Virus record (IMG/VR): IMGVR_UViG_3300022908_000003
Coordinates: 4,054-68,053 of that record
DNA length: 64,000 nt
Direction: 5' to 3' (one strand)
Origin: a virus
Shown here one piece after another: positions 825 to 64,000 of the stretch (positions within the stretch are counted from its first letter, which is position 1; the number at the start of each line of letters is the position of its first letter). The notes below the pieces were generated by a model. It ran no database searches. It had not been told where the DNA came from and worked only from the letters and a program-made list of their open reading frames with translations. Position numbers and translations under genes: made by a program.

Positions 825-3098
825 TTAAACCACTCCCTCTGTCGTCTTAACTTGAAGGCGACTAAGTTTCTTTCGAGGCAGTAACTTACGTTCTTCAGGA
901 TAGTACAAAGGAACTCCTTTAACGCTACGATCTGGTTCATTTTCTGCATTTACTACTCTTTCTCCGATAGTAGGAGGTGCTATCTTCTTTACTATTCTTA
1001 TTTTCTTCTGTCTATCTCTAAACTGTACCTTAACCATTCCGTTTATTCTTCGTAAACCAGATGTAGCCCATAGCTTAGAAATATCTGAAGAAGGATAGTA
1101 TTTCATAATAGGCGCGCCTCTCCCAGCAGGATTTTCAAATTTCCTAATGAAGATAACACCTAATTCTTGGAGATCCTCTAACTGATCTCTTAGTGTAGAC
1201 TTAGCTAATGAACAATCATCAGATAGTTCCTGTAATGTTTGTCCAGGACTTTCCATAAGAGAGGCTATAGCTTCTAAATTAAACCCTACACATGTGTCTA
1301 TTGCAACTCTTGAGAGAATACGATACTCAGTTAATCCAATAGACGGAGGGCTATTAATTAGAGAAAGCCCCATCAGGAGTTTCGTTAATTCTTTTGCAAC
1401 TCTTGTGCCTACTTCTTCTTGTGGTCTGTATAGCAGTTTTCTTTCACCTTTGAAATCTCTCTCTACCGTAGCTCTAAGTTTTGCTACGATCTGAGCTAAA
1501 GCAGATATTCTATCAATATCACTATCACTTATCTCAGGTACATCTTCTTCAAAGTTTACATTAACATCAAGGAAAGACCTAGCTATATCAATTAACTCTT
1601 GTCGAATAACTGCACCTTTACCTACAGATTTTATAGCTGCGCGTATAGGGTCACTATGATCTAAGTTGCATCCCTTTATGACATGCATCATAAGGAAACG
1701 TTCTCCAACTACAGAATTTCTTTCAGCATATATTGCTGGAGTAACTCCAGTAACTACATTGAAATGTGCTCTATATCTTCGAGTAATTCCATTGCCAAAA
1801 GGCTTCTCTACTTCCCCGTCATAAGCCCCTCTAAGTGTACCATATATTTCTTCTTTACTTATTCTTGGCATTGATAGAATTTCTGTGAAATCCTTCAGAA
1901 CAAGAGTTTTACCGTCTAGTGTTGGCAGAATACTTGGATCATGCCCCCCACCTTGCACAAACCCGCTCACAAGGGCATGAGGGGTCATTGTAGACATGAA
2001 ATGGCAAGTAAGACAAGCTGATATACTTGTAAGCAAAGCGGTTTTAGCTGCCCCCGGTGGAGCAACAATATGCACCCATAACGGGTCATCTGGAATATTT
2101 GTGGATAACACTACTGCATAAATTACACGTAATGCATCTTCCAGGTCCGGGGTCATTTTAAGGAACTTGCGATAAACCGATAATACAGTTTTGAAGCTAG
2201 GCCGGTTTCCAGATTTAATTGGATTATTTTTAATCTGCTCTTGTTTTGCCTGGGCTTTTTCTTGATCTGATGAATACCTTGCAATAAGGGAAGAGAATTC
2301 TTTAAAATCTGGTTTTTCTTTGGTAATGTATTCACGTATGTCATAACCATCCTGAGTTGTGGCTGGCCATACCAAGTGCAATACCTGTGCAGCACGATCT
2401 TTGATTTTTTCATAAACTCTTGCTTTACCTTTAGTTCCTGGACTATCATTATCATAACACAGTACAACTTTCTTACCTGCTAGATATTCTGTCCATGCAT
2501 CTTGCCAAGTTCCAGCACCAGGAACACCTAAAACAATTCCGGTTTCCGTTTCTCTGGTGAGAAAATCTCTTAAACAAATTTCATCCCATCTTCCCTCGCA
2601 CAAGTAAACAGTATCGCTGTCATTATCTGATAAAGTTTCTAGACCAAACAGTGAAACGCTAATAGAGGGTAAACCCTTTACTTGATCATTTAAATGGTAT
2701 GTTAAAAGATTAATTAAAGCTCCTGCGGTATTCCTTACAGGAAGTATATATCTCCAACCATCATGCACTATTCCTTCTTTACGTAGAAGTTTTACATTCA
2801 TGCCTCTATTGTCTGCAAGCTTCTTCATTGCTTCTGCTTGCAAACCTCTAGTTCTTATCTTCTCTTGGTACCATTCGTTAATAAATGTGTATGTGTTGCC
2901 TTTCTTAAAACATACTTTACATTCCCACATTGCTACAGTGGTTGTATTAAAGTTAATGTAGAGTTTATTCCTTGCACCACAGAACAAGCATTCCCCATAG
3001 GCTTCATTACCTACTACTCGTTCTTCGTGGTAATCAAAGCCAAGAGAACAGAAAGTTCTAAGCTTTAGCGGAACATCATTCTTTGATCTTGGCATCAA
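825..3098 (-). CDS. primase-helicase (Zn finger + TOPRIM + P-loop ATPase + C-terminal winged helix)
   Basis: CLFC..CKVC zinc finger; LCEGRWD and YDNDSPG TOPRIM motifs; Walker A-like APPGAAKT; Walker B-like LVLKDFTE; C-term STLRDQLEDLQELGVI. Confidence 0.8.
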   Translation of the reverse strand: MMPRSKNDVPLKLRTFCSLGFDYHEERVVGNEAYGECLFCGARNKLYINFNTTTVAMWECKVCFKKGNTYTFINEWYQEKIRTRGLQAEAMKKLADNRGMNVKLLRKEGIVHDGWRYILPVRNTAGALINLLTYHLNDQVKGLPSISVSLFGLETLSDNDSDTVYLCEGRWDEICLRDFLTRETETGIVLGVPGAGTWQDAWTEYLAGKKVVLCYDNDSPGTKGKARVYEKIKDRAAQVLHLVWPATTQDGYDIREYITKEKPDFKEFSSLIARYSSDQEKAQAKQEQIKNNPIKSGNRPSFKTVLSVYRKFLKMTPDLEDALRVIYAVVLSTNIPDDPLWVHIVAPPGAAKTALLTSISACLTCHFMSTMTPHALVSGFVQGGGHDPSILPTLDGKTLVLKDFTEILSMPRISKEEIYGTLRGAYDGEVEKPFGNGITRRYRAHFNVVTGVTPAIYAERNSVVGERFLMMHVIKGCNLDHSDPIRAAIKSVGKGAVIRQELIDIARSFLDVNVNFEEDVPEISDSDIDRISALAQIVAKLRATVERDFKGERKLLYRPQEEVGTRVAKELTKLLMGLSLINSPPSIGLTEYRILSRVAIDTCVGFNLEAIASLMESPGQTLQELSDDCSLAKSTLRDQLEDLQELGVIFIRKFENPAGRGAPIMKYYPSSDISKLWATSGLRRINGMVKVQFRDRQKKIRIVKKIAPPTIGERVVNAENEPDRSVKGVPLYYPEERKLLPRKKLSRLQVKTTEGVV

Positions 3099-3619
3099 AC
3101 ATGCTCTTTCCAGATTACTTTATTAAACACGTCAACTAAATAATCTATTACAGGTTCTAGTAACACCTTATCGGCATTTCCTGCTATATTAAGAATTTTT
3201 ATATCGTTCATGACTATCCAAAGGGCAACTTCTTCAATAGGTCTAAGTTCTTCAGCATGTAATATAATATCTAATGATGGCTTGTAATAATCTCTTATTG
3301 CTCTTAGTGTACATAGTTCCCCTGGAGATTGAAAATTATATGCTAGTCTTATTGTACCATCCGAAGTTTGCACGTTCTTTCTGGTACGAGATCTGTAATC
3401 AGGGCAATCGTCTTCAAGGTGATATATTATTTTCTGTGAAGGTCTGCAACCATCCTTAGTTAAATAACCTTTAACAGTATGCCCACCGGTTTTTAAACCT
3501 ACTCTTCTTGCTGCCATAAGCCCAGCTTGATCAACCCCAATTTGCCCTCCAGATATTACAGTTTCTAAATTATTATAGTTCCTTGTTAGAACTGGAGACT
3601 TCTTTATTTTGAACTTCAT
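3095..3619 (-). CDS. SLOG superfamily protein (cpYpsA / putative molybdenum-carrier-like)
   Basis: Motifs VISGGQIGVDQAGL, RTRKNVQTSDGT, LNIAGN. Confidence 0.8.
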   Translation of the reverse strand: MKFKIKKSPVLTRNYNNLETVISGGQIGVDQAGLMAARRVGLKTGGHTVKGYLTKDGCRPSQKIIYHLEDDCPDYRSRTRKNVQTSDGTIRLAYNFQSPGELCTLRAIRDYYKPSLDIILHAEELRPIEEVALWIVMNDIKILNIAGNADKVLLEPVIDYLVDVFNKVIWKEHV

Positions 3620-4065
3620 TTATTAAGCCATTCTATAGGAGGATCTAATATAGCTGTCATAACTTCAAAATGATAGAGATAATTTTCTTTTGTTGCATTT
3701 ATAAAGTTACTAGCAGTGTTGTCAGCATCTTTACCAGAGAAAACTGCAACTGGCTTTGGGTCAATGTCACACATAGCTTCTTGCATAACAACATATACTG
3801 TTTCAGGTTCTCTTTCAATAATCTTAAACACCTTCATTACTTCGTTAAATCTAATAGGTGTTTCGGAAACTAGCTCTCCGTTATTATGAAGTATACTATA
3901 GAGTGCATTTGTATGCGTTGCACCTCCATATTCACCTCTATAATGACTTGCCATCATTGCAGATATTTCACCAGTTCCACCCCAAACTAAATAAGTCTCT
4001 CCTTCTATTAATTCTTTTTCTGACTTAATCTCAACTAAAGTTGGATTTTCTATTAAGTTGCTCAT
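3616..4065 (-). CDS. hypothetical protein
   Basis: 149-aa ORF overlapping the stop/start of its neighbours. Confidence 0.6.
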   Translation of the reverse strand: MSNLIENPTLVEIKSEKELIEGETYLVWGGTGEISAMMASHYRGEYGGATHTNALYSILHNNGELVSETPIRFNEVMKVFKIIEREPETVYVVMQEAMCDIDPKPVAVFSGKDADNTASNFINATKENYLYHFEVMTAILDPPIEWLNK

Positions 4066-4266: not shown

Positions 4267-4548
4267 TTAGTCAAACTCCTTGAAGAAAATGTACTCAACC
4301 CCCCCGCTTGCCTGGGTTGTCTTTTTTCTGGTGAGAAGACCAAATTTAACAAGCCGGTTTAAGCGTTGAAACATTGTAGTATGCCCTATAACCTCTCCTG
4401 TATTTTTGTAATGGTCTTCTACAATTTCTTTACAGCATTTACCTCGACTAGTCTTAGGCATTACTCTAAATATTTGTTCAAGACGATCTGGAATATCTGT
4501 AGTTCCTCTACCGTCACAACAACGGCACTTTACTTTTACTACGCTCAT
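4267..4548 (-). CDS. small CxxCxGxG + winged-helix DNA-binding protein
   Basis: CRCCDGRG at the N-term; TTMFQRLNRLVKFGLLTRKK resembles a wHTH recognition helix and wing. Confidence 0.55.
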   Translation of the reverse strand: MSVVKVKCRCCDGRGTTDIPDRLEQIFRVMPKTSRGKCCKEIVEDHYKNTGEVIGHTTMFQRLNRLVKFGLLTRKKTTQASGGVEYIFFKEFD

Positions 4549-6800
4549 AGTTCTAATTTATATTCTCCTACTCCCCATGCTTTCTCTGTTACTGTTACTT
4601 CTACTGGCATTGGTACTTTCATTCTCCCTCCGTTGTCTTCCATAATATTTACAATAGCTTTAGCAAAAGAAGGTTTGAAGTTCTTCTTGTCTCTCTCTAT
4701 CTTAAGTTCATCATGGATAGTTAGAATAAGGTATGCTCCATGATTGTTCTTTGGTCCGAGAAACTCGTTGACACGAATTAGGCTATCCTTCATCATATCT
4801 GCTGCTGTTCCCTGGATCTTATACGACACTGCGCGATATGGGAAATCTCGATCTACTCGAAGCTTACGACCATATAAGGTATGAATGTAACCGTTCTTTT
4901 CAGCTTCTTTCTGTAGCTCACCCATATACCTCTTTAGCTCAGGAATTCTAGTATTGTATTCCTTATCGAAGATTTTTGCTTCTTTTAAAGTTGCATAGAT
5001 CAAGTGAGTATATGAACCAGGCCCACCTCCAAATATTTTAGCATAGGTAATATGTTTACATCGCTGTCTTGCTAATTCCTTCTCTACAGATTTTTCTGCT
5101 AATACAATGTCATAATCAAATTGATCAAGCCACCACTCTACAATTTCTAGAACTTCTTTGGCATTTTGACCTTCGCCAAACTGAGCTATTTCAAAAGCCT
5201 TCTTTCTAGACCAATCAATTTCCTTCCAAACTTCCTTTACATGCTCATTAGCAGGTTCTCGAAATAAATCTAGTGCCTGAATGACTGCCTTAAATGCAGC
5301 ATCATTTCCTCTTCCTCCCCAAATTTGGTTAGACATAGCTTTAAATAAATCTTCACCAGAGAAAAGGGCATTTAGCATAACAGGGACTTGTGCAAGTTCT
5401 GCGAAAATCCTACCTTCCTGTTGCGAGAAGTCAAAGCCTAACCAAAGCTTGCCAGGACGCGGTACAAAGACCTTTGTTGAGGAATAAGACGCTGAGAGGC
5501 TTTTCTTTCCTCCTGCGCTTATCTGTTGCCCGTTAAACCCACCTTCACCCCCTCCGCTAAATCGACCGGTACGAGTTCCACATTGATTAAATGACGGGTG
5601 TACCATAAACCTACCTGGACAGGCCGGATCTGGCATTAGAATTTTAGCAAATTTATTGAAGAAAAGACCTAACGTATGTTTAGCTGCACGATACTTTGCA
5701 AGTTCCTGTACAAAAGGAGAATGCATTAGTTCACGTAATGTATCTTTATCGGCAGTTAGTTTCCCGGTCTTTCTATTACGTCGATCGGTTTCAAGACCTA
5801 ACCCACCTTCTTCTGGTGGGAGATATAGTATTCTTAGAAGCTGTCTACTGTCTGCTTTAAATACAGGAGTTTTCCAAGTCTTAGAAACTGTGCCATTCTT
5901 TAGTAATTTAGGCTCATACTTCTCCGGTGGAAACGGCTTCAGGTTTAATTCTTCAATCATGTCTTGCATTTTGTTCATATGCACAAGAACATCACGCTTA
6001 CATTTGATAGTTTCTTCTTTAAGAGATTTGGGGTCTATTCCAATACCGTGAAATTCCATAGTATTTACAATAGGCCATATTTTATTCATTTCCTTCCTAT
6101 AGGTATTGTGTAAACTTTCATCACCAGAGACAATAGGCCAATAGAAGAGAAACAAAGCCATTGTTCTGAAGGTATCAAGCATACAGTATTTCTTGCAGCT
6201 ATCATCATACTGATCAAAATACTTTGGTAGCCAATAATCTTCTTCGGTTTCTTCTCCAAGTTGAATAGTAAGCTGCCCTAAAGCTAATGCTCTTACATTA
6301 TATGATCTTGCATGGTTTCTCCATCGCTTTACAAGATCTTTCAAATCCTTTTCGTCGTCATCAGGAATTTTAAGACGAACTTTAGAAAGCCACTTCAAGC
6401 CATAGTTCATTTCAAGAGTAAATGAAACTCTCGCACAAAATACAGTATCGTGTATATTCAAAATACCAACAAGTTTGACAACATCAATGCCGCATTTTTT
6501 AAGCATTGCGCAGTCAAACTTGGAGTTATGAAATATTACACTGATACCTTTTATTTTCAGAACTGAGATTATGTAACCAACATCTTCTTGGTTTACCGTT
6601 ACTTCTCTGGTGAAAGGATTAACAGGCCATTGGCAATACCATCCATTGCCGTCTTCGTCGCACATTGAAATAGCAAAAGCAGCATCATTACCCCAATGAT
6701 TTAAACCCGTAGTTTCTGTGTCAATTGCAACTAAATTACGGGGATTGAATAAATGATACTCCGACTTTATATGTCTAGTCTTCTTTATTCTTATTTTCAT
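4545..6800 (-). CDS. polA: family A DNA polymerase with 3'-5' exonuclease domain
   Basis: Exo motifs DTETTG, FHNSKFD, YCMLD; pol motifs TRTGRFS, DFSQQEGR (A), RQRCKHITYAKIFG (B), IQGTAAD, TIHDEL (C). Confidence 0.95.
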   Translation of the reverse strand: MKIRIKKTRHIKSEYHLFNPRNLVAIDTETTGLNHWGNDAAFAISMCDEDGNGWYCQWPVNPFTREVTVNQEDVGYIISVLKIKGISVIFHNSKFDCAMLKKCGIDVVKLVGILNIHDTVFCARVSFTLEMNYGLKWLSKVRLKIPDDDEKDLKDLVKRWRNHARSYNVRALALGQLTIQLGEETEEDYWLPKYFDQYDDSCKKYCMLDTFRTMALFLFYWPIVSGDESLHNTYRKEMNKIWPIVNTMEFHGIGIDPKSLKEETIKCKRDVLVHMNKMQDMIEELNLKPFPPEKYEPKLLKNGTVSKTWKTPVFKADSRQLLRILYLPPEEGGLGLETDRRNRKTGKLTADKDTLRELMHSPFVQELAKYRAAKHTLGLFFNKFAKILMPDPACPGRFMVHPSFNQCGTRTGRFSGGGEGGFNGQQISAGGKKSLSASYSSTKVFVPRPGKLWLGFDFSQQEGRIFAELAQVPVMLNALFSGEDLFKAMSNQIWGGRGNDAAFKAVIQALDLFREPANEHVKEVWKEIDWSRKKAFEIAQFGEGQNAKEVLEIVEWWLDQFDYDIVLAEKSVEKELARQRCKHITYAKIFGGGPGSYTHLIYATLKEAKIFDKEYNTRIPELKRYMGELQKEAEKNGYIHTLYGRKLRVDRDFPYRAVSYKIQGTAADMMKDSLIRVNEFLGPKNNHGAYLILTIHDELKIERDKKNFKPSFAKAIVNIMEDNGGRMKVPMPVEVTVTEKAWGVGEYKLEL

Positions 6801-8121: not shown

Positions 8122-9666
8122 TTAAATAGGTACTCCTGCGGCTTTCAAATTATTCTCAGCAGCTTGTTGTGCTTTGCTTTGTTCTTCCAAATCACCTATA
8201 GGAATTATAGAAGAAGGATCTACTGCTACAGGTCGCCTTCTAGATCCTCTCATAATCTGAACTACATGCTCAGGATTATTAAAACTCTTATAGTCAATTC
8301 CAGTATACTTACCTTCTATGACTTTATCACCAGAGGAAGGGTACTTCCTTTCGGCAATTACATTCTGTCCTTCAATAGCCTTTAGCTTTTCGTTTTGTTC
8401 TGTTGGTTCTGGATTTGCTATTGTTAGTTCTTCCTTGACTTGCTGAATAACTTCAGGATCTATGCTAACCCCTGTTTCTTTCATTTTATCAACAATAGCA
8501 TCTAGATCTACTTCCGAATAGTAATGATCTATTTCTACAATAGCTTCGTTATGCCAATAAGGATTTCCAACTATATTGTACTGCCAGGTTCCTAGTAAAG
8601 CATTATCCATTGGCATGTCAGAATATCTAATAGCCTGTATCTTGCCGGAAATATCGTAACCTGCCACCTTTACATTGTCATTTAAGTTATGCAGGGGGGC
8701 AGAGATTAGATCGTCTTCGTGAACTGCATCAGGATTATCTCTAGGTAAAGTGTATAACCATCCTTTTGGAACTCCTGTTAAATATAGCCCAACCTCATGT
8801 ACAGGGTATGCCTCTAGAGGATTAATCTTATCAAATATTTTTTTGTGAGGGGTATTTGCCCTAACAACTACTAAATCATTTTCTTGGAACTTACTCTGAT
8901 CCATGTTACGATTTGAAGCATAGGTTATGTTATTAAGACGTTTCTCTATGTACTGTTTAGGATAACCTAACTCTATAAGTTTATCTAAAGTTTCTTTATA
9001 AAGCACACTAGAAACGTTAGTTCGTTCGCCTTGTGTTAGAGGCTGCTCATATGGAGCAGGAGGGTTTACTGCCTGATGCGCTCTTGGCTCACGCAGAGCC
9101 TCTTCTACGGCGGCATAAGGGGTATAGTAGATCCTTGTTACAGGTTCCCATTCAAACTTCTTTGGCGACGCTTCAGATGCGCTGTCAATCCACTTACCTA
9201 CCTGAACATACCACCCGGAAGTAGTATGCTGCAAAACGCAGTTAGGCGCAATTTCTGCAAGTTTTTCAAGTAGGCTATCAAGACCCCCAACATAACTTAC
9301 TGTAGTTCCTTCATGACTTGGATACTTTACAGGGTTAGCAACTTTTGCATTTTCTTCAAGATAAGCGGCTTTCTCACCATCATAACTAGAAGGGAATTGT
9401 AATTGTTTTGATTGTAAATGTACCTCTTCTGCTATCTCTTCTAGATGCGTTTTAGTAAGTCTTTCTACCAGAGAAGATGGCTTTGCAGATTTTGCAATAG
9501 AAGCTAATGTAGGTCCGCTATCCTCTTTTGTCTCAGGATGTACAGTAATCTCTTTACCGTCTAGTTGCAGCTTTAACGGTCTGCTTGCAGTCTTGAAACC
9601 TGCTACATCAGGTACAACTACATTTTGTTCAAATTTTGTGGCAATTCTCTTCTTAATCTTAACCAT
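8122..9666 (-). CDS. hypothetical multidomain protein
   Basis: 514-aa ORF. Confidence 0.7.
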   Translation of the reverse strand: MVKIKKRIATKFEQNVVVPDVAGFKTASRPLKLQLDGKEITVHPETKEDSGPTLASIAKSAKPSSLVERLTKTHLEEIAEEVHLQSKQLQFPSSYDGEKAAYLEENAKVANPVKYPSHEGTTVSYVGGLDSLLEKLAEIAPNCVLQHTTSGWYVQVGKWIDSASEASPKKFEWEPVTRIYYTPYAAVEEALREPRAHQAVNPPAPYEQPLTQGERTNVSSVLYKETLDKLIELGYPKQYIEKRLNNITYASNRNMDQSKFQENDLVVVRANTPHKKIFDKINPLEAYPVHEVGLYLTGVPKGWLYTLPRDNPDAVHEDDLISAPLHNLNDNVKVAGYDISGKIQAIRYSDMPMDNALLGTWQYNIVGNPYWHNEAIVEIDHYYSEVDLDAIVDKMKETGVSIDPEVIQQVKEELTIANPEPTEQNEKLKAIEGQNVIAERKYPSSGDKVIEGKYTGIDYKSFNNPEHVVQIMRGSRRRPVAVDPSSIIPIGDLEEQSKAQQAAENNLKAAGVPI

Positions 9667-10129
9667 TTTTTCTTTCTTTATCCTTTGTTAGTATATCGGT
9701 TGTTTTATTCATAAAGTTTTCAAACTCTTCTTCAGAACCATTAAACATAGTCTGTATTATAAAGAATTTAAATATATCAAATGTCCATGGTTTCATAGCC
9801 TCATTGGTTATGTAACTATTAACTAAATAGGCTAAACATCTTTCTTCGTTCTCTGTAAAAACTGTAGGAACAAAGAGGGTTTCCGTTTTCTCTGGTACAA
9901 GTTCTACTGTATCTCTTTGTATCTCTGTATGTCTTTCTTCTGGTGGCAGATGCCCTGATGTGTCTATTTCTTGCATTGCAACCCACTTTACTACGTACCC
10001 AAAATTATACGTAGTTTTTCCAAGTTCTCCTTGTACTTTAAATCCTTCAGGGTAGAGTGAAGTAGGTACTGACATTGCAATAACTTGCTTGCCTACATAC
10101 TTTTCTAAATCTTTTACAGGAATTGGCAA
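9659..10129 (-). CDS. hypothetical protein
   Basis: 156-aa ORF with TTG start and AGGAG RBS. Confidence 0.6.
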   Translation of the reverse strand: MPIPVKDLEKYVGKQVIAMSVPTSLYPEGFKVQGELGKTTYNFGYVVKWVAMQEIDTSGHLPPEERHTEIQRDTVELVPEKTETLFVPTVFTENEERCLAYLVNSYITNEAMKPWTFDIFKFFIIQTMFNGSEEEFENFMNKTTDILTKDKERKNG

Positions 10130-10130: not shown

Positions 10131-10679
10131 TTACTTAACTCCTATGCTGCACATTCCAGCGCCATAAAGGTATACCCCCTTTGGTAGATCAGACCTTACA
10201 TATATCATATCTTCTTCTGCTAGTGGATTTTTGTCTGCGAACTTAAATTTATTGTTTCTGTTATCTAGAAACTCAAGAACTTCAACATTAAGTCTTGGAG
10301 TGACTTTAATTATAGTTCCTTTAGTTGTGGTTCTAAAGTAGATGTTCTTTCGGATTTGCTTTGGCTTGTTTGAAATATTCTCTTCTTTACCAGAGAGACG
10401 ACCGGTTTCGGTTCCATGGGTTTTAACTAAATCGAATTCATTTCTTGTATTTACTCCAGTATCAGAATTTTGACGGGTCAGTTTCATAATTCTTTTTTCT
10501 TGCTCTGAAAAATCAAACTGTTCCACTATCTTAGCTAATTCTCCCGGTTTTAGATCTGATCTACCACCTATAGAAGTCTCTACTCCTATGTGAGCTATAG
10601 AGGCAACAGCAGAACTTAATCCAACTAACATAGCTGTCTTCCCTACTGATTGAGGTTTATTTACTTTAATTGTATCCAT
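10131..10679 (-). CDS. hypothetical protein with a PolA-like TGRLS peptide
   Basis: 182-aa ORF with AAAGGA RBS; contains GTETGRLSGKEENISNKP. Confidence 0.6.
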   Translation of the reverse strand: MDTIKVNKPQSVGKTAMLVGLSSAVASIAHIGVETSIGGRSDLKPGELAKIVEQFDFSEQEKRIMKLTRQNSDTGVNTRNEFDLVKTHGTETGRLSGKEENISNKPKQIRKNIYFRTTTKGTIIKVTPRLNVEVLEFLDNRNNKFKFADKNPLAEEDMIYVRSDLPKGVYLYGAGMCSIGVK

Positions 10680-10761: not shown

Positions 10762-12069
10762 TTAATCTTCGTTGTCATCTTCGGGAATGATGTTTACAAT
10801 CTCACCAAATCCAACAACGTGTATTACTGCTCCTACCTTTACAGTGACCTTTGAAGTAGCTTCGTTGATCTTAGTAACCTTACCCTTCAAGGTCTTCTTA
10901 GCATTCTTAGGGTCTGTGAACACAATTGTATTTCCTACCTCAAGTTCCTCTTCCTCTTCCTCTTCGTCTTCTTCATCTTCTTCGTCGCCGTCTTCAGTTT
11001 CCTCTTCGTCGTCATCTTCTGCATCTTCGTCTTCTTCATCTTCAACTATTGCAGAAAGTTTAGAAACTTCTACTTCATCAAGGATGGGCTTCTTTGCAGT
11101 TCCTCCAACCCTGATTTTTGCGGTTTCGGTTGCTTCATCAATGGAGTGTATTGTACCGGTCTTGTCTTCTGTCTTAGCCTTCTTACCGATACCAGTTGTC
11201 ACACTCCAAGAAACCTCTTGACCTACTTCAAATTCGGTACCTTCATCCTCGTCTTCTGTTTCGTCGTCTTCATCCTCTGCAAGTTCTGCAAAAGTTTTGG
11301 TAAAGGTCTTTGTCTTCTTACCTACCTTAACCTTGATAGAGACGGTTTCCTCTTCTTCATCGACGGCAGAAACAATTCCGGTAAGTTCCTCGCCATCCTC
11401 TTCAAAGGTAATTTCGTCGCCTACCTCACATGGCGCTTCTGTTTCGTCATCATCTTCAGGTTCCGGTTCTGGAGTTTTTGTAGCAGGCTTCTTAGCCGAA
11501 GAGGTACTTGATGGCTTCACTCCAGCTTTTGACTTCTTTGGGGTTTCGGTTTCTGCTGCCTCATACCCTTCTTGACGCTTACCTAGATTAAACCACTGTC
11601 GTGGCTCTGTATAATTTCCAGTAGCGGCGGTAGTTTTCAGCTTGAACAGGAAGACCGGTTCTTCATCAAGACAATTCTGTAAAATTTCCTCAAACTGCTC
11701 AATATCCAAATCTGATGGGTCTTGATCTGTCATTAATCCAACTTGACGTACAAGTCTTGGATTAAATTCACCATTATTGTCAAGAAGGAAAAGCCACTGA
11801 GGGTAAACTTCGTTTACATGATCACCTTCTTGGATAGCCCAAGATAGCAGAGCACCCCAAACTTTATCTTCATCGGGTAAATCCGCAGTATCTTTAGTAG
11901 GCTTGATCTCGAAAGCGGCAAACTTTCCGATATAGTCGCCGTCTTCGTAGACATTACCTCCACCCTTCTTAGCTGCCTCTACTGTCTGATCCCAATTCTC
12001 CTTTGCCTTTGCAAGGAGAGCCTTATAACCGGTAACTACTGCTGCTGTCTTTTTCTTAGTAACTGACAT
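10762..12069 (-). CDS. putative single-stranded DNA-binding protein (DUF669-like N-domain) with acidic linkers and three SH3/KOW-like repeats
   Basis: N-term VYEDGDYIGKFAAFEIK resembles phage SSB/DUF669; lies next to an AAA recombinase; very D/E-rich; repeats EVGDEITF / EVGQEVSW / EVGNTIVF. Confidence 0.6.
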   Translation of the reverse strand: MSVTKKKTAAVVTGYKALLAKAKENWDQTVEAAKKGGGNVYEDGDYIGKFAAFEIKPTKDTADLPDEDKVWGALLSWAIQEGDHVNEVYPQWLFLLDNNGEFNPRLVRQVGLMTDQDPSDLDIEQFEEILQNCLDEEPVFLFKLKTTAATGNYTEPRQWFNLGKRQEGYEAAETETPKKSKAGVKPSSTSSAKKPATKTPEPEPEDDDETEAPCEVGDEITFEEDGEELTGIVSAVDEEEETVSIKVKVGKKTKTFTKTFAELAEDEDDETEDEDEGTEFEVGQEVSWSVTTGIGKKAKTEDKTGTIHSIDEATETAKIRVGGTAKKPILDEVEVSKLSAIVEDEEDEDAEDDDEEETEDGDEEDEEDEEEEEEELEVGNTIVFTDPKNAKKTLKGKVTKINEATSKVTVKVGAVIHVVGFGEIVNIIPEDDNED

Positions 12070-51810: not shown

Positions 51811-51831
51811 GTGTTTGTTACTGTAGGTAAT

Positions 51832-55650: not shown

Positions 55651-55685
55651 TGTGTGAACTCCTAAACTAAAGTAAATCTACTAAG

Positions 55686-55714
55686 AGTATATCACGGTCT
55701 GCATAGTATGTCAA
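55686..55714 (-). promoter_or_regulatory. sigma70-type promoter
   Basis: TTGACA-17 nt-TATACT with extended TG. Confidence 0.8.
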
Positions 55715-56154
55715 GCACTTTACTAAATTTTCTTTAGTCCCGGTTCCAAAGTCCCGTTCTTTCTGGTAGAAGAAATCATGCCCGATAACTTCCATTGTAT
55801 TCTTTACACTTACTCAGTAAGTCCCTAGAATGGCTGTTTACAGCACAAGTCTAAGCAATTCTCTGTCCCTGTAATCCATAGAAACTCTGATAGTTACGTA
55901 CTTTGTCTACTATGTTTCTTATCTATAGAAAATCCTATACGAACAGATTTCAACATCAAAACTGCGTTTATGTAGACATAACTCTATACCTTCTACGTTC
56001 GCCGTAGCAAAAAGTCAACGTACAATCACCCCAAAACCTTTATTGAACGCGTCTCCGTGCGTTCTACGGTCAAATAGAGGTACTACAATCCGTTCGCTCA
56101 AACAGCCATAACCGAACAAAGACCGTTTTCACCATACCCAGGTACCCGGACATG

Positions 56155-56188
56155 AAAAAAGACCGGACTGCATGAAGCAATCCGGCCT
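56155..56188 (-). terminator. intrinsic terminator
   Basis: Minus strand AGGCCGGATTGC-TTCAT-GCAGTCCGGTCT followed by a T-run. Confidence 0.8.
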
Positions 56189-56227
56189 ATCTCTGATTTT
56201 TATGATCTAACTACCTCGCGGTGGAAC

Positions 56228-59453: not shown

Positions 59454-59659
59454 TATCTACCTTTTATTTTTCCTTCGCAAGCTAATGCATGAAATATAGC
59501 ATAACCTAACTTTTCGGCGGCGAGTATATAATTTAAATTAGATTTCACTTCCTTACCATAAGTAACAGTAAATTTAGTCTTACTATCTTGTGTTACAGTA
59601 ATTGGAAATCCTGCTAATTCCGTTTCAAATATTTTAGTCTTTACCATTAAATCCACCAT
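59453..59659 (-). CDS. hypothetical protein
   Basis: FTVTYG..LNY..AA..LG..IFHALACEG, a phage small-protein pattern. Confidence 0.55.
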   Translation of the reverse strand: MVDLMVKTKIFETELAGFPITVTQDSKTKFTVTYGKEVKSNLNYILAAEKLGYAIFHALACEGKIKGR

Positions 59660-59819
59660 ACCTCATAACCATAAACTAACATAGAGTAATCTAGTGTAGA
59701 AACTTCTTCTTTCTCTATGAGTTCACAATAACGAATTGTGAAGCGGTTGATAGATCTCTTTTTATTGTTTTGTCGATTTAACCGCATTTTACGCGGTTTG
59801 TTTTTTGGCTTCATTTTCC

Positions 59820-59850
59820 GGTTTCCGTTATTCTCTGGTAGAAGAAATCT
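59820..59850 (-). repeat. copy of the dispersed ACCAGAGA motif
   Basis: Minus strand AGATTTCTTCTACCAGAGAATAACGGAAACC, directly after a stop codon. Confidence 0.8.
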
Positions 59851-62099: not shown

Positions 62100-62672
62100 T
62101 TACAATTCTTTTGGAGGGATAGTAAATACGCATTCCCCTTCATGACCATTTATTAGTAAGCACCGCAACGGTCTTGACTTAGGCCAATTTTCTACAGCAT
62201 CCCCTTTTTTACATCTTCCAAATAGACTAACAGGCACATTTGCTGCCAAGATCGCAGGTTTATAGTTATCAGATTCTATTTGACTTACAGCATACTTTAA
62301 AGCGTCAATTTGATGGTTCTCTTCTGTATCTTCCTTTGCTAAATCCCATGCGTTATGGAGAAAAACTCTCCCTGACCTAAAAATTTTCTTCAGTACTTCT
62401 GCACGTCTATCTTTGTCAGTTTTCACTTTCTCTGGTAAAAGAGAAGGACAAATAACAGGGATTTCAAGAGCACTGAAATAGACCTGTTTACATCTTGTAC
62501 ACTGCGCATAGACGCTTTCAGCGTTGTATACAGCCTCTATATGGCAACACACTATACTCCTGATCTCTGCCCTAGTTAAATCAAAAGCATCTACTCCGAG
62601 TTTCTGTGCTGCCAAGATAAGTTCTATAGAAGTTGGAGTTAAATTACTACGTTCTCTACCAGAGAAAAGCAT
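62100..62672 (-). CDS. Cys-rich hypothetical protein
   Basis: 190-aa ORF with CTRC and RC..RCLL..GHEGEC. Confidence 0.55.
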   Translation of the reverse strand: MLFSGRERSNLTPTSIELILAAQKLGVDAFDLTRAEIRSIVCCHIEAVYNAESVYAQCTRCKQVYFSALEIPVICPSLLPEKVKTDKDRRAEVLKKIFRSGRVFLHNAWDLAKEDTEENHQIDALKYAVSQIESDNYKPAILAANVPVSLFGRCKKGDAVENWPKSRPLRCLLINGHEGECVFTIPPKEL

Positions 62673-62676
62673 TACC

Positions 62677-63186: not shown

Positions 63187-63190
63187 AAAG

Positions 63191-64000
63191 CTATCCTTTC
63201 AAGTTCTGAGCTACTTTTTCTACAGTAGATCGAACAACATCTACTGACCATCCCTTAGTTAAGAGATAAGATGATAGTTCTGCTTTTACTATATCTTTCA
63301 ACCTAGTGTGTGTCACTGCGTTGAGATGGTTCATTAGAAAATAGCTTACATCCCCTTCTACGGTTCCGGTAGTTATTGGGCTATATCTAACACCACCCTC
63401 TAAACTAAGATCAAAGGGGTTTTCTACAAACCTAGTATAACCTGCGGCTGAGTTACGATCTTCCATCTCGTTAAGTATGTCAAGTTGCCAACCCATTAAC
63501 CTAACTTTTAAGACCTTTAACAAGAACTCTTTGAGATTAATACCTCTTTGTAAAGGTTCTATAGGGCTGTTTTCACCAGAGAGAACGGAGTTCTCAGATT
63601 GTACTGTATTTTCTACATCAGGAAGGTCTTGTACTATCTCGCCTGGAGTAATATCTTCTTCACTCCGTCTATACGGTAAGTAATCAAATTCATACCTATA
63701 GGTGTCTAACTCACTATCAAAACCAACAGCAGTTATTTCTACAATTCCTGTAGTAAATTCTACTTTAGATTGATAAGTTATATGATCGCCTACACGGTAT
63801 TTCGGTCCTTCTTTGAGTGCTTCTTCAGAGTACCATAGAGCATTGCTTTTAAGATGGTACGAAAATCTAGGTTCCCCTCCGTTTATGAAGCCTTCGAAAA
63901 TACTATCTATTTGGCATATTTGTCCTGTATCCCTTATAACTACAGTTTGCCCTTCAGAAACTTTTGGTTCCCTTTTCTCTTGTGAAGAAATCTCTACTTC
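63191..64000 (-). CDS. hypothetical protein, 5' truncated by the window edge
   Basis: The frame of the 63191..63523 ORF stays open to position 64000 on manual translation. Confidence 0.6.
   Translation of the reverse strand, partial: EVEISSQEKREPKVSEGQTVVIRDTGQICQIDSIFEGFINGGEPRFSYHLKSNALWYSEEALKEGPKYRVGDHITYQSKVEFTTGIVEITAVGFDSELDTYRYEFDYLPYRRSEEDITPGEIVQDLPDVENTVQSENSVLSGENSPIEPLQRGINLKEFLLKVLKVRLMGWQLDILNEMEDRNSAAGYTRFVENPFDLSLEGGVRYSPITTGTVEGDVSYFLMNHLNAVTHTRLKDIVKAELSSYLLTKGWSVDVVRSTVEKVAQNLKG

What the first reader, a model, noticed from the sequence alone, without database searches (positions are those of the whole stretch)
2541..63995. Genome-wide asymmetric ~28-bp DNA motif (core ACCAGAGA) written into genes in all three frames
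Seen: approximate consensus on the coding strand is ATTTCTTCTACCAGAGARAACGGGRAACC. The core TCTCTGGT on + starts at 2551, 6604, 9889, 12131, 14859, 16709, 19002, 20221, 26405, 28298, 29604, 33415, 34599, 37082, 38144, 40680, 42567, 45911, 47230, 50742, 59832, 62429. The opposite orientation (ACCAGAGA on +) starts at 3733, 5355, 6123, 9467, 10389, 16734, 21713, 25473, 32062, 34280, 36279, 43621, 62658, 63575. One-mismatch copies lie near 3370, 4321, 28555, 42830, 55752, 56812, 63967. That is at least 36 exact 8-mers; I estimate 1-2 by chance at this AT content. In CDSs it reads as PEKTG (nuclease), TRENG (NlpC/P60) and YQRER (TMP), so the constraint is on DNA rather than protein. Caveat: many reverse copies encode F-S-G and may owe something to codon bias. 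Inference: a binding-site array for one protein, comparable in logic to mycobacteriophage stoperators or parS/matS-type organising sites, or a packaging, ejection or protection signal. It matches no motif I recognise.
Basis: partly seen in the sequence, partly recalled or inferred. Interest (0 to 1): 0.88.

Follow-up and report, generated by a model that had tools for sequence, protein, structure and literature searches.

The report
Genome-wide recognition motif in phage clade
A 68-kb uncultured phage and its relatives carry roughly 32 to 46 scattered copies of one short asymmetric DNA word, kept by selection even at the cost of changing their proteins, which most likely marks sites read by a phage protein whose identity and purpose are still unknown.

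Summary
ACCAGAGA occurs 37 times in the window (2.1 expected) and 40 times in the 68,053-bp phage genome. About 47 sites fit an extended consensus, wATTTCTTCT-ACCAGAGA-rAACGG(G)GAACC. Synonymous-codon shuffles do not reproduce it: 17 sense and 14 antisense in-CDS copies against 1.8 and 0.8.

New here: four other distinct complete uncultured phage genomes (GC 0.36-0.59) carry the same array, pyrimidine tract-N-CCAGAGA-R, with 32-46 copies each. Each genome prefers its own base at N. The array tracks the shared replication/recombination genes rather than the capsid genes. Sites arise by substitution, not insertion, and they distort the proteome (FSG and TRE are over-used). Same-orientation sites keep at least 0.5-1 kb apart in four of five genomes, while opposite-orientation sites lie as close as 26 bp. 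A few gene-junction sites are positionally conserved.

No repressor, integrase, RNA polymerase or sigma factor was found among the 47 of 109 ORFs scanned.

Best reading: selected recognition sites for a clade-specific phage protein (about 0.85). The mechanism is unresolved. I favour start or loading signals for the DnaG-type primase/MCM-like helicase/winged-helix protein (about 0.3). Rivals are a stoperator-like regulatory array, Chi-like or nick sites, and terminase sites. Nothing comparable appeared in my literature searches.

The parts
37082..37089 (-). motif core, sense; best copy
   Evidence: Exact. 40.1 bits. Fills the 38-nt gap before 34614..37064.
40680..40687 (-). motif core, sense, intergenic
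   Evidence: Exact. 36.8 bits. 17 nt before the ATG of the major capsid gene 39550..40662.
20221..20228 (-). motif core, sense, in CDS
   Evidence: Exact. 36.3 bits. In 19971..20300, read as STREVGQP.
34599..34606 (-). motif core, sense, intergenic; junction conserved
   Evidence: Exact. 35.0 bits. 46 nt before 34025..34552. A site lies at this same gene junction in 4 of 4 genomes, inverted in G002.
47230..47237 (-). motif core, sense, just upstream of the probable start of the TerS-like gene
   Evidence: Exact. 34.3 bits. The Atlas record starts at residue 45 (47190). Sites lie at the 5' end of the orthologue in G002 and G006.
26405..26412 (-). motif core, sense, in the NlpC/P60 ORF
   Evidence: Exact. 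34.1 bits. Read as TRENGEP.
9889..9896 (-). motif core, sense, in CDS
   Evidence: Exact. 33.3 bits. In 9659..10129, read as VPEKTE.
16709..16716 (-). motif core, sense; half of an inverted pair
   Evidence: Exact. 32.2 bits. In the RuvC-like gene 16257..16799. Its start lies 25 bp from that of 16734 (26 bp between CCAGAGA starts).
16734..16741 (+). motif core, antisense; other half of the pair
   Evidence: Exact. 28.9 bits. Read as FSG.
12131..12138 (-). motif core, sense, intergenic; position conserved
   Evidence: Exact. 31.7 bits. 61 nt before 10762..12069. A sense site lies upstream of the orthologue in 4 of 4 genomes.
28298..28305 (-). motif core, sense, 3' end of the tape-measure gene
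   Evidence: Exact. 31.4 bits.
59832..59839 (-). motif core, sense, intergenic
   Evidence: Exact. 31.1 bits. 17 nt before the ATG of 59647..59814. Fills a 36-nt gap.
21713..21720 (+). motif core, antisense, intergenic
   Evidence: Exact. 30.5 bits. In gap 21675..21730.
19002..19009 (-). motif core, sense, 3' end of the Zn-finger gene 18955..19620; position conserved
   Evidence: Exact. 30.2 bits. S-PEK falls in the same alignment column in own, G001 and G002, and at the same place in G007.
14859..14866 (-). motif core, sense, in the exonuclease-like gene
   Evidence: Exact. 29.5 bits. Read as STPEKTGKP.
43621..43628 (+). motif core, antisense, in 42853..44463
   Evidence: Exact. 28.9 bits. 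Read as FSG.
36279..36286 (+). motif core, antisense, in 34614..37064
   Evidence: Exact. 28.7 bits. Read as FSG.
63575..63582 (+). motif core, antisense
   Evidence: Exact. 28.2 bits. Intergenic by my gene calls.
50742..50749 (-). motif core, sense, intergenic, at the head of the late block
   Evidence: Exact. 27.6 bits. 17 nt before an in-frame ATG of 49918..50739. Preceded by a GC-rich hairpin-like stretch.
9467..9474 (+). motif core, antisense, in 8122..9666
   Evidence: Exact. 27.0 bits.
5355..5362 (+). motif core, antisense, in PolA
   Evidence: Exact. 25.5 bits. LFSGED, where relatives have ISTGAD and IRNKTD.
25473..25480 (+). motif core, antisense, in the tail gene 23894..26227
   Evidence: Exact. 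25.4 bits.
2551..2558 (-). motif core, sense, in the primase-helicase gene
   Evidence: Exact. 24.9 bits. Read as LTRETETG.
3733..3740 (+). motif core, antisense, in 3616..4065
   Evidence: Exact. 24.5 bits. Read as FSG.
33415..33422 (-). motif core, sense, in the tape-measure gene
   Evidence: Exact. 23.5 bits. Read as YQRER.
62429..62436 (-). motif core, sense, in 62100..62672
   Evidence: Exact. 22.9 bits.
38144..38151 (-). motif core, sense, near the 3' end of 38101..38490
   Evidence: Exact. 21.9 bits.
42567..42574 (-). motif core, sense, in 42077..42724
   Evidence: Exact. 21.0 bits.
62658..62665 (+). motif core, antisense, in 62100..62672
   Evidence: Exact. 20.1 bits. Read as FSG.
6604..6611 (-). 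motif core, sense, in PolA
   Evidence: Exact. 19.1 bits. FTRE is also encoded in G001 at this place, but with other codons.
45911..45918 (-). motif core, sense, in the large terminase gene
   Evidence: Exact. 18.5 bits.
6123..6130 (+). motif core, antisense, in PolA
   Evidence: Exact. 17.2 bits.
32062..32069 (+). motif core, antisense, in the tape-measure gene
   Evidence: Exact. 16.6 bits. DFSGAG, where relatives have DFSSSG and DFTAQG.
10389..10396 (+). motif core, antisense, in 10131..10679
   Evidence: Exact. 14.3 bits.
29604..29611 (-). motif core, sense, in the tape-measure gene; weak flanks
   Evidence: Exact. 13.5 bits.
34280..34287 (+). core word only, antisense; flanks under 12 bits
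   Evidence: Exact. Not in the matrix list. Read as FSG in 34025..34552.
   Evidence: Exact. Not in the matrix list. May be a chance copy.
55760..55767 (-). degenerate copy (ACCAGAAA) with full flanks, intergenic
   Evidence: 29.5 bits. Lies about 40 nt upstream of a TTGACA-17-TATACT promoter-like site in gap 55651..56227.
63976..63983 (-). degenerate copy (ACAAGAGA) with full flanks
   Evidence: 28.1 bits. Lies in the 175-bp stretch that the assembly repeats at both contig ends.
56820..56827 (-). degenerate copy (ACCAGTAA)
   Evidence: 25.4 bits.
28555..28562 (+). degenerate copy (GCCAGAGA)
   Evidence: 20.8 bits.
24264..24271 (+). degenerate copy (GCCAGAGA)
   Evidence: 19.8 bits.
4325..4332 (-). 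degenerate copy (ACCAGAAA)
   Evidence: 19.5 bits.
3378..3385 (-). degenerate copy (ACCAGAAA)
   Evidence: 18.4 bits.
38441..38448 (+). degenerate copy (ACAAGAGA)
   Evidence: 16.4 bits.
825..3098 (-). candidate reader: DnaG-type primase + MCM-like P-loop helicase + C-terminal winged helix (757 aa)
   Evidence: Toprim_2 and PHROG primase hits. CxxC..CxxC and PPGAAKT are visible in the sequence. Several sub-threshold winged-helix hits fall at residues 609-670. AF2 model pLDDT 79.7 shows H-H-H-strand-strand at 607-669. Foldseek matches DnaG, T4 and T7 primases and MCM chains. Homologues are present in every motif-bearing genome.
46360..47190 (-). candidate reader: TerS-like protein with a conserved C..RC..GRCRKHGG motif
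   Evidence: No Pfam, PHROG, NCBIfam or PDB hit. The nearest named Atlas clusters are small terminases at 0.79 and 0.77, a lead only. Sits directly upstream of the large terminase. Homologues are present in all five complete motif-bearing genomes.

Best explanation
General tier (about 0.85). The copies are DNA recognition sites kept by selection. One sequence-specific factor reads a roughly 27-bp asymmetric site: a pyrimidine tract, one genome-specific base, the invariant CCAGAGA, R, an A-rich stretch, and often a GGAACC box. That factor is encoded, or at least co-inherited, with the replication/recombination gene set of an uncultured siphovirus clade. Sites are created by point substitution wherever the coding sequence tolerates them, and they are held at about 32-46 per 62-68 kb genome.

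Committed mechanism (about 0.3, inferred, not shown). The sites are direction- or strand-specific start or loading signals for the phage's own replisome. The proposed reader is the fused DnaG-type primase / MCM-like helicase / winged-helix protein (825..3098). Under this reading the strand carrying TCTCTGG would be the template. It contains the CTG trinucleotide that E. coli DnaG is reported to use (recalled, not from a call), in a register that would give an all-purine primer starting pppAGAGA. Copies on both strands, each spaced at least 0.5-1 kb from the next copy on the same strand, would then programme priming on both strands.

The best-matching copies sit in short intergenic gaps because nothing else constrains them there. 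Their purine-rich 3' half may double as a ribosome-binding region.
For: DNA-level selection.
- 37 copies against 2.1 expected.
- In-CDS copies 17 sense and 14 antisense, against 1.8 and 0.8 under synonymous shuffles.
- The CCAGAGA core behaves the same way in relatives: own 20/17 against 4.7/2.4, G001 19/9 against 4.3/2.9, G002 13/13 against 2.5/3.1.
- Substitution, not insertion: 46 of 54 sites in orthologue alignments lie in ungapped columns.
- The proteome is bent to fit: FSG 11 against 3.4, TRE 12 against 5.0, mostly spelled with the motif codons.

A clade feature with drifting specificity.
- CCAGAGA counts: own 45 (dinucleotide-shuffle mean 7.6), G001 33 (8.2), G002 36 (8.3), G006 46 (18.8, max 29), G007 32 (7.7).
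- The preceding base is A in 40 of 45, C or T in 18 and 13 of 33, T in 32 of 36, T in 35 of 46, and C in 28 of 32, in that genome order.
- Controls: G010 11 (5.5) and G004 17 (9.4, max 17).
- Of the 80 loci kept from the capsid-gene search, only the three from G001, G002 and G003 (a near-identical copy of G001) are enriched.

The array tracks the replication genes. G006 has no detectable homologue of this phage's capsid or large terminase genes. It does share PolA, primase-helicase, SNF2, RuvC-like, UDG-like, exonuclease, Sak4-like, TerS-like and portal genes.

Strand-specific action.
- Smallest gap between same-orientation (sense) sites: 1062 bp (P<0.0003), 891 (P=0.0005), 571 (P=0.0015) and 518 (P=0.03) in four of five genomes.
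- Smallest gap among all sites is 26-89 bp, as expected by chance.

Reader architecture. Zinc-binding motif, Toprim domain, P-loop, and a modelled winged helix at 607-669. Foldseek matches to DnaG, T4 and T7 primases and to MCM chains.

A distant relative, G009 (primase 23% identical), carries a different dispersed word instead. TGGATTCA occurs 39 times. Its antisense in-CDS count is 23 against 2.6 under synonymous shuffles.
Against: - No experiment and no read data. The only sequencing run holding the phage is kept as contigs, so nicks, primers and ends cannot be seen.
- Known primases need only 3-5 nt. I know of no precedent for a 27-bp genome-wide primase site (recalled).
- The winged-helix hits are all below the curated cut-offs.
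- Primase-helicase homologues of the same architecture occur in relatives that show no CCAGAGA array: L136-L138, L140 and L144.
- Features that point towards gene expression instead:
  - Sense sites are enriched between genes, 23 against 9.7 expected (P=2e-4).
  - Three junction sites are conserved in 4 of 4 genomes.
  - Three or four copies sit exactly 17 nt before a start codon.
  - There is a mild overall sense excess, 115:77.
  - The largest site-free stretch coincides with the promoter-rich early region in 3 of the 4 genomes that have strict sigma-70-like matches.
- Orientation does not switch along the genome, as simple bidirectional lagging-strand priming would predict.
- The same-orientation spacing could have other causes, and ten spacing tests were run.
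- An MCM-like helicase would travel on the leading-strand template (established knowledge), which fits lagging-strand priming poorly.
Confidence: 0.3

Rival explanations
1. Stoperator-like regulatory array. A phage DNA-binding protein sits on the sites and controls transcription of the middle and late genes, as an operator, a roadblock or an activator. The early region is left free so that it can be expressed first.
For: - The site is asymmetric, with similar copy numbers per genome and a cognate variant in each genome. Cluster A stoperators behave the same way (PMC6550527, passages read; PMC9283540, passages read).
- Sense sites are enriched between genes, 23 against 9.7.
- Junction sites before the orthologues of 34025..34552 and 10762..12069, and at the 3' end of 18955..19620, are conserved in 4 of 4 genomes.
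- In the late region the short gaps hold the motif and nothing else, and sigma-70-like matches there are no commoner than chance, 59 against 52.2.
- The largest site-free stretch holds the strict sigma-70-like matches in own, G001 and G007.
- A degenerate copy lies about 40 nt upstream of a strong promoter-like site.
Against: - Stoperators lie in one orientation and lose function when inverted (PMC9283540). Here the split is 115:77, and the conserved junction site is inverted in G002.
- 80-87% of sites are inside genes.
- No repressor, integrase, partition gene, sigma factor or RNA polymerase was found among the 47 of 109 ORFs scanned.
- The size of the site-free stretch is not itself exceptional, P about 0.08 to 0.5.
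- No candidate regulator is shared by all five genomes outside the replication and packaging genes.
Confidence: 0.22
2. Recombination or processing signal read by a translocating enzyme. Either a phage-specific Chi-like word that switches the phage's exonuclease/SNF2/Sak4/RuvC-like machinery, or site-specific nick sites like those of T5, phiKMV and tf.
For: - Same-orientation sites are spaced out while opposite-orientation sites are independent of each other. This is what signals read directionally on one strand would give.
- A full recombination gene set travels with the motif: exonuclease, Sak4-like, RuvC-like and SNF2 in all five genomes.
- Phages with more than 20 selected Chi copies exist (PMC12315714, passages read).
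- Nick sites with 9- to 19-bp consensus, 4 to 14 per genome, exist (PMC3517423, passages read).
Against: - Chi-rich phages have nearly all copies in one orientation (20:3, 32:0) and lack their own recombination genes (PMC12315714). Here orientation is mixed and the recombination genes are present.
- Nick sites in T5, phiKMV-like phages and tf lie on one strand only (PMC3517423).
- A 27-bp flank consensus is unlike Chi.
- No nickase was recognised.
- Nicks could not be tested, because only contigs are available.
Confidence: 0.15
3. Packaging signals. The sites bind the TerS-like protein (46360..47190), so that the terminase can start on phage DNA at many places.
For: - The TerS-like protein is one of the few non-replication proteins with homologues in all five complete motif-bearing genomes. 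This includes G006, whose large terminase is not detectably homologous.
- A strong site lies just upstream of its gene in own, G002 and G006.
Against: - The terminase assignment is only a lead: Atlas scores 0.79 and 0.77, with no family hit.
- Four loci with distant homologues (23-35% identity) have no enrichment: L228, L229 and L230 have no copy in 9.7-20 kb, and L232 has 2 against 1.1 expected.
- Headful or cos packaging needs one site (established knowledge).
- Mixed orientation has no obvious use for a one-way motor.
Confidence: 0.08
4. RNA-level element. In the mRNA the sense copies act as an intercistronic translation-initiation or processing signal, with a pyrimidine tract followed by a purine-rich Shine-Dalgarno-like GGGGAA. 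The other copies are by-products.
For: - Three or four copies end exactly 17 nt before a start codon, and the motif fills whole 36- to 39-nt gaps.
- The GGAAC-like box accompanies sense copies more often than antisense ones: 18 of 26 against 6 of 19 in own, and 7 of 20 against 0 of 16 in G002.
- Sense copies are enriched between genes.
Against: - Antisense copies are selected in all three genomes tested: 17 against 2.4, 9 against 2.9, and 13 against 3.1. They share the flanks.
- All genes lie on one strand, so antisense copies are not in mRNA.
- The inverted-repeat arms that would make a hairpin are strong only in G002, 16 of 36.
- 80% of sense copies are inside genes with no start codon following.
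Confidence: 0.08
5. Host-derived word. The phages copy a signal of their hosts, such as the host Chi, an uptake sequence or a self mark that a defence system spares.
For: - The evolutionary pattern matches uptake sequences and Chi: core plus flanks, both orientations, frames chosen inside genes, peptides distorted (recalled for USS/DUS).
Against: - The core is constant across phages of GC 0.36-0.59, while the -1 base is specific to each phage.
- A 19-base version found only 4 single hits in 185,579 species' genomes and 11 single hits in metagenome contigs, as chance would give.
- The host is unknown, so genome-wide counts could not be made.
Confidence: 0.07
6. No function: codon bias, a protein motif, a mobile in-frame insertion, or an assembly artefact.
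For: - Antisense copies mostly read FSG (10 of 14).
- The genome is rich in AGA and TCT codons.
Against: - Synonymous and codon-permutation shuffles give 0.5-1.8 copies against 14-17 observed.
- Sense copies use all three frames, 7/3/7.
- 46 of 54 sites lie in ungapped orthologue columns.
- The array recurs in five independent assemblies.
Confidence: 0.02

Closest known systems
Stoperators of Cluster A mycobacteriophages (L5, Bxb1; immunity repressor gp71 type)
   Same: An asymmetric site repeated 20-35 times across a phage genome. Copy numbers are similar among relatives. The consensus drifts from phage to phage along with its reader (PMC6550527, PMC9283540, passages read). The numbers and the per-genome variant match what searches show here.
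   Different: Stoperators are 13 bp, lie mostly in promoters and short gaps, and work in one orientation only, in temperate phages with a known repressor. Here the site is about 27 bp. 80-87% of copies are inside genes, the orientation split is 115:77, and no repressor or integrase was found among the ORFs scanned.
Chi-rich lambdoid phages (LLS, MD8) and Chi in general
   Same: A short asymmetric word accumulated well beyond chance inside phage genes, at about one per 1.5-2 kb, read directionally (PMC12315714, passages read).
   Different: Chi is the host's word and is 8 nt without long flanks. Nearly all copies share one orientation, and it occurs in phages that lack their own recombination genes. 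Here there are long flanks, mixed orientation, the phage has its own recombination genes, and each phage has its own -1 base.
DNA uptake sequences (USS of Pasteurellaceae, DUS of Neisseria)
   Same: An invariant core with a weaker extended consensus of about 29 bp. Both orientations occur. Copies sit inside genes in the frames that cost least, with a visible effect on peptide usage, and arise by substitution (recalled from the literature; the corresponding facts here come).
   Different: Those are chromosomal signals of competent bacteria, read by an uptake receptor. This is a lytic-looking phage clade, with no link to transformation.
Localised nick sites of T5, phiKMV-like phages and phage tf
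   Same: A conserved 9- to 19-bp word at 4-14 dispersed places, conserved among related phages, with function still unknown (PMC3517423, passages read).
   Different: All known nick sites lie on one strand. Here both strands carry sites, and there are three times as many. Nicks could not be tested.
Origin iterons of self-loading primase-helicases (P4 alpha; SaPI/PICI Rep)
   Same: A replication protein that combines primase and/or helicase with a sequence-specific DNA-binding domain. P4 alpha is recalled. For PMC9371898 and bioRxiv 10.64898/2026.10.17.759575 I saw only the search listing. The protein at 825..3098 has primase, MCM-like P-loop and winged-helix parts.
   Different: Iterons are clustered at one or two origins. 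Here the sites are single and spread over the whole genome. Binding has not been shown.

Membership tests
Stoperator/operator array (Cluster A mycobacteriophage type) | Asymmetric site repeated some 20-35 times per genome, with similar numbers in relatives and a cognate variant per phage | tested here: met
   32-46 CCAGAGA copies in five genomes, each with its own preferred -1 base. 47 matrix sites in this genome.
Stoperator/operator array (Cluster A mycobacteriophage type) | Sites predominantly in one orientation relative to transcription | tested here: not met
   115 sense: 77 antisense over five genomes. Orientations are interleaved along the genome.
Stoperator/operator array (Cluster A mycobacteriophage type) | Sites in promoters and short intergenic spaces | tested here: not met
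   Only 23 of 115 sense and 10 of 77 antisense sites are intergenic.
Stoperator/operator array (Cluster A mycobacteriophage type) | Cognate immunity repressor and a temperate life style (integrase or parABS) | tested here: inconclusive
   None found among the 47 of 109 ORFs scanned against Pfam, PHROGs or NCBIfam. 62 mostly small ORFs were not scanned.
Chi hotspot (RecBCD/AddAB) | Short asymmetric word over-represented in the genome | tested here: met
Chi hotspot (RecBCD/AddAB) | Strong orientation bias towards the direction in which the enzyme enters | tested here: not met
   Ratios of 1.25 to 2.3 sense to antisense per genome, against 20:3 and 32:0 in Chi-rich phages (PMC12315714).
Chi hotspot (RecBCD/AddAB) | The same word over-represented and skewed in the host chromosome | not testable with these tools
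   The host is unknown. A 19-base version gave only 4 single hits in genome contigs.
Localised nick sites (T5, phiKMV, tf) | All sites on one DNA strand | tested here: not met
   Both strands carry sites. One strand only in tf, T5 and phiKMV-like phages (PMC3517423).
Localised nick sites (T5, phiKMV, tf) | Physical single-strand breaks at the word in virion DNA | not testable with these tools
   The one run that holds the phage is kept as contigs.
Single-subunit (T7-type) phage RNA polymerase promoters | Conserved asymmetric site of about 20-25 bp | tested here: met
   About 27-bp consensus.
Single-subunit (T7-type) phage RNA polymerase promoters | Phage-encoded RNA polymerase | tested here: not met
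   No such hit. All ORFs of 600 aa or more are accounted for as primase-helicase, PolA, tail protein, fibre, lipase-domain protein, large terminase and tape measure. The tape-measure assignment rests on position and size only.
Single-subunit (T7-type) phage RNA polymerase promoters | Sites upstream of genes and co-oriented with them | tested here: not met
   40% of sites are antisense and 80% or more lie inside genes.
DNA uptake sequences | Core plus extended flank, both orientations, copies inside genes made by substitution and distorting peptide usage | tested here: met
DNA uptake sequences | Belongs to a naturally competent bacterium and is read by its uptake machinery | tested here: not met
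   The record is a 68-kb phage genome with capsid, tail, terminase and replication genes.
Origin iterons of self-loading primase-helicases | Initiator with a sequence-specific DNA-binding domain | tested here: inconclusive
   Winged helix modelled at 607-669. The family hits are all below cut-off. Binding was not tested.
Origin iterons of self-loading primase-helicases | Sites clustered at an origin | tested here: not met
   1-4 sites in 15 of 18 4-kb bins of this genome, none in three bins. Spacing of all sites is as random.

The most novel reading that the evidence does not exclude
A clade of uncultured siphoviruses writes a private address into its own DNA: about 32-46 dispersed, strand-specific start or loading sites for its fused primase/MCM-like helicase/winged-helix protein. 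Replication priming or initiation would then be programmed by sequence across the whole genome rather than at one origin. It is A-, T- or C-CCAGAGA in close relatives and an unrelated word, TTTGGATTCA, in a distant one. It is strong enough to reshape the phage's proteins.
Probability: 0.25. Interest if true: 0.85.

Novelty: new variant of a known kind. Interest (0 to 1): 0.72.

Why it matters
Genome-wide selected words are rare. Where they have been understood (Chi, uptake sequences, KOPS, stoperators), each revealed a machine that reads DNA directionally.

This is a clean new case. The word costs the phage amino-acid changes. It is conserved over deep divergence (45-55% protein identity, GC 0.36-0.59). 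It changes one base from phage to phage, and it travels with the replication genes. That makes a definite, cheap experiment possible: synthesise the site and the few shared proteins, and test binding, priming and nicking.

If it is a regulator, it would extend the stoperator principle beyond temperate actinophages, and to both orientations.

The motif is also a practical marker for recognising members of this uncultured clade in metagenomes.

Tried and rejected

**A second motif.** TGTAGAAA (32 copies) and AGAAGCTA in L026 have no flank consensus and are explained by coding.

**Mobile in-frame mini-element.** Rejected: 46 of 54 sites lie in ungapped orthologue columns, 5 have one relative gapped, and 3 have both gapped.

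**Hairpin or inverted repeat as the conserved feature.** The arms are strong only in G002 (16 of 36 with 5 or more of 6 pairs). In the other genomes the counts are 4/45, 4/33, 6/46 and 1/32.

**Exact long versions of the motif elsewhere.**
- 23 single hits in viral contigs.
- 11 single hits in metagenome contigs.
- 4 single hits in genome contigs.
- None of these loci is enriched or homologous to the phage.

**Named relatives.** blastn against phage records found nothing. Protein searches gave only distant hits, at most 31% identity for PolA and 24% for the capsid protein. A single-protein terminase search in viral contigs found no relatives.

**Synonymous-site conservation in close relatives.** Not informative. 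G003 is 99.99% identical to G001, and L132 is identical to G007. No pair of intermediate divergence was found.

**Even spacing of all sites together.** Not different from random.

**One-mismatch words as a class.** Not enriched.

**The site-free early stretch.** It is suggestive by position but not exceptional by size.

**Sequencing runs.** One DNA holder, which may be the source sample (leaf litter metagenome), kept as contigs. No RNA holder is listed. Read laying was not used, because contigs cannot show ends or nicks.

**TerS-like tracking test.** Four loci with distant homologues show no array. This is weak evidence, since the homologues are distant.

**G010.** It has a different word, TGGTTTTTATTA, 8 copies, all sense. 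It looks promoter-like and is not the same phenomenon.

**Literature.** Searches found no description of this motif or of a comparable two-orientation, in-gene array in phages. The stoperator counts and orientation figures of PMC6550527 sit in supplements that I could not see.

Full report
**What the window is.** The window is 64,000 of the 68,053 bases of a single-contig virus record. The two ends of the contig overlap by about 175 bases, the usual sign of a circular or permuted assembly.

All genes lie on the minus strand. They include:
- a major head protein, a large terminase, a lambda-like tail block (tape measure, NlpC/P60, Phage-tail_3) and a PA14/lectin fibre;
- a replication and recombination block: family A DNA polymerase, Toprim primase, SNF2 helicase, UDG-like protein, exonuclease, Sak4-like protein and a RuvC-like resolvase.

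No named phage is close. The only sequencing run that holds the sequence is a leaf-litter metagenome, which may be its source.

**The observation.** ACCAGAGA occurs 37 times in the window against 2.1 expected. It is the commonest 8-mer of the genome, with 40 copies.

Aligning the copies gives an asymmetric consensus of about 27 bases: w-A-TTTCTTCT, ACCAGAGA, R-AACGG, a short variable G/A stretch, and AACC. An iterated weight matrix finds 47 sites above 12 bits in the genome, against 0.6 in shuffles. Eight of the 43 in the window have one or two changes in the core. One-mismatch words as a class are not enriched, so only copies with the flanks count.

**Is it DNA or protein?** It is DNA.
- The 17 sense copies inside genes use all three frames (7, 3, 7). 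The 14 antisense copies mostly read FSG.
- Shuffling synonymous codons within each gene keeps every protein and every gene's codon usage. It leaves 1.8 sense and 0.8 antisense copies. Permuting codons within each gene gives still fewer.
- The word has pushed on the proteins. FSG occurs 11 times against 3.4 expected, and 8 of those are spelled TTCTCTGGT. TRE occurs 12 times against 5.0, and 8 are spelled ACCAGAGAR.
- In alignments with orthologues from two relatives, 46 of 54 sites lie in ungapped columns. The relatives simply have other residues there, for example LFSGED against ISTGAD and IRNKTD.

So the copies arise by point substitution, not by insertion of a small mobile element.

**Relatives.** Capsid and polymerase searches in IMG/VR brought in related uncultured phages. 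I fetched complete records. G003 is a near-identical copy of G001, and L132 is identical to part of G007, so neither counts as a separate genome.

Five distinct complete genomes carry the same array:

| Genome | CCAGAGA copies | Dinucleotide-shuffle mean | Base before the core |
|---|---|---|---|
| own | 45 | 7.6 | A in 40 of 45 |
| G001 | 33 | 8.2 | C 18, T 13 of 33 |
| G002 | 36 | 8.3 | T in 32 of 36 |
| G006 | 46 | 18.8 (max 29) | T in 35 of 46 |
| G007 | 32 | 7.7 | C in 28 of 32 |

- GC content across these genomes ranges from 0.36 to 0.59.
- In the three genomes tested, the in-gene copies exceed synonymous shuffles on both strands.
- A pyrimidine tract precedes the core in each of the five.
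- The GGAAC-like box follows it often in this genome and in G002, mainly at sense copies.
- Two control genomes are not enriched: G010 with 11 copies (shuffle mean 5.5) and G004 with 17 (9.4, max 17).
- Of the 80 loci kept from the capsid search, only the three belonging to G001, G002 and G003 are enriched.
- The polymerase search adds L132 to L135, with L163 weakly enriched and without flanks.

**What the array travels with.** G006 has no detectable homologue of this phage's capsid or large terminase genes. It does share the polymerase, primase-helicase, SNF2, RuvC-like, UDG-like, exonuclease, Sak4-like, TerS-like and portal genes.

More distant relatives with homologous polymerase and primase-helicase genes lack the CCAGAGA array. 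One of them, G009, has a different dispersed word. TTTGGATTCA-like sites (TGGATTCA) occur 39 times, 10 sense and 29 antisense. The in-gene antisense count is 23 against 2.6 under synonymous shuffles.

This is the pattern expected if a reader encoded in the shared block changes specificity over time. It is not proof.

**Layout.**
- Over the five genomes there are 115 sense and 77 antisense copies, a mild sense excess in each. In this genome the antisense consensus has a TAG in one frame (read directly from the consensus sequence), which may account for part of the excess here.
- Sense copies are enriched between genes, 23 against 9.7 expected (P = 2e-4). Antisense copies are barely enriched, 10 against 6.5.
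- In this genome the best-scoring copies fill whole 36- to 39-nt gaps. Three or four of them end exactly 17 nt before a start codon.
- Three sites are at the same place in all four genomes that share the flanking genes:
  - at the junction before the orthologue of 34025..34552 (inverted in G002);
  - inside the 3' end of the Zn-finger gene 18955..19620;
  - upstream of 10762..12069.
- Most other sites differ in position between genomes.
- The smallest gap between sense copies is 1062, 891, 571 and 518 bp in four of five genomes (P from under 0.0003 to 0.03), and 66 bp in G002. The smallest gap among all copies is 26-89 bp, as chance predicts. Same-orientation copies therefore seem to avoid one another, while opposite-orientation copies ignore one another.
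- The largest site-free stretch (9.1 kb here) holds the strict sigma-70-like matches in this genome, G001 and G007. It does not in G002, and G006 has no such matches. Its size alone is not exceptional.
- Clear TTGACA-17-TATACT promoter-like sites occur in the early region and before two replication-gene groups. The late region has none above chance, 59 against 52.2.

**Mechanism.** What is shown: a selected, DNA-level, asymmetric site, conserved with a drifting base across a clade. It is made by substitution and tolerated at a cost to proteins.

What is inferred: that one protein reads it, and which one.

I favour a directional signal for the phage's replication machinery.
- The array follows the replication genes.
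- The spacing rule holds per strand.
- The protein at 825..3098 has the right parts:
  - a CxxC..CxxC zinc motif and a Toprim domain;
  - a P-loop domain whose model matches MCM chains;
  - a C-terminal helix-helix-helix-strand-strand unit at 607-669 that draws several winged-helix hits, all below cut-off.
- The TCTCTGG strand contains CTG in the register that would give a primer starting pppAGAGA. This rests on recalled knowledge of E. coli DnaG, not on a call.

Against this reading:
- no primase is known to need so long a site;
- homologous proteins occur in genomes without the array;
- the intergenic enrichment, the conserved junction sites, the fixed 17-nt spacing and the site-free early region point towards gene expression.

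The other readings:
- A stoperator-like array is the nearest known analogue, but it fails on orientation, on location and on the absence of a recognised repressor.
- Chi-like or nick-site readings fit the per-strand spacing, but fail on the one-strand or one-orientation rule of every known case.
- A terminase-site reading rests on a weak assignment.
- An RNA-only reading cannot explain the selected antisense copies.

I put the general reading at about 0.85. The specific mechanisms are at about 0.3 (replisome signal), 0.22 (regulatory array), 0.15 (recombination or nick signal), 0.08 (packaging), 0.08 (RNA), 0.07 (host word) and 0.02 (no function).

**Novelty.** Seven literature searches found no description of this word or of a comparable two-orientation, in-gene array in phages. 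The library does not hold most subscription journals, and supplements were closed.

I class it as a new variant of a known kind, namely genome-wide selected recognition words.

Noticed in passing
window 51701-51810 and 51833-51909 (minus strand): Two Rfam tRNA matches (41.1 and 30.9 bits). The first spans 110 nt for a 71-position model, so it carries an insertion of about 39 nt. ARAGORN called neither.
   Followed up: no
window about 55.7 kb, 13.5 kb, 20.9 kb and 52.1-52.7 kb (minus strand): Canonical sigma-70-like promoters (TTGACA, 17 nt, TATACT or TATAAT). Several share the stretch CGTGATATACTCTTAG. They lie in the early region and before two groups of replication genes, and none lies in the late block.
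   Followed up: partly
G009 (record of L163; L233-L236): This distant relative has its own dispersed word: TTTGGATTCA with flanking AATT/GAAT arms. TGGATTCA occurs 39 times, 29 of them antisense, spread at 1-4 per 4 kb.
   Followed up: partly
L028 (IMG/VR record, 18.8-kb locus): The 10-bp palindrome CCTTGCAAGG occurs at about 10 places in 18.8 kb in a capsid-gene relative that lacks the CCAGAGA array.
   Followed up: no
G010 (record of L136; L220-L222): TGGTTTTTATTA occurs 8 times, all on the sense strand and widely spaced. It looks like a phage-specific promoter or terminator element.
   Followed up: no
window 405-824, 3095-3619, 3616-4065: A NADAR domain protein and one or two SLOG-family proteins lie next to the primase gene. 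The circularly permuted YpsA is clear. The SLOG cluster3 hit is weak (E = 0.045, 13.9 bits, below cut-off). The YpsA-like gene is conserved in G001, G002 and G007.
   Followed up: no
L130:13315-16467 (G002 primase-helicase orthologue): The orthologue is 1051 aa against 757 aa here, and the match is split at about residue 167 of the query. A large insertion, possibly an intein or an extra domain, sits inside the primase part.
   Followed up: no
window 51678-52091 (gap before 51429..51677): A run of about 11 G, and a second G-rich stretch, lie just upstream of the tRNA-like genes.
   Followed up: no
window 46360-47190 and orthologues: The TerS-like protein family shares an invariant cysteine/histidine pattern, C..RC..GRC(R/A)(K/R)HGG, that matches no Pfam, PHROG, NCBIfam or PDB sequence.
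   Followed up: partly
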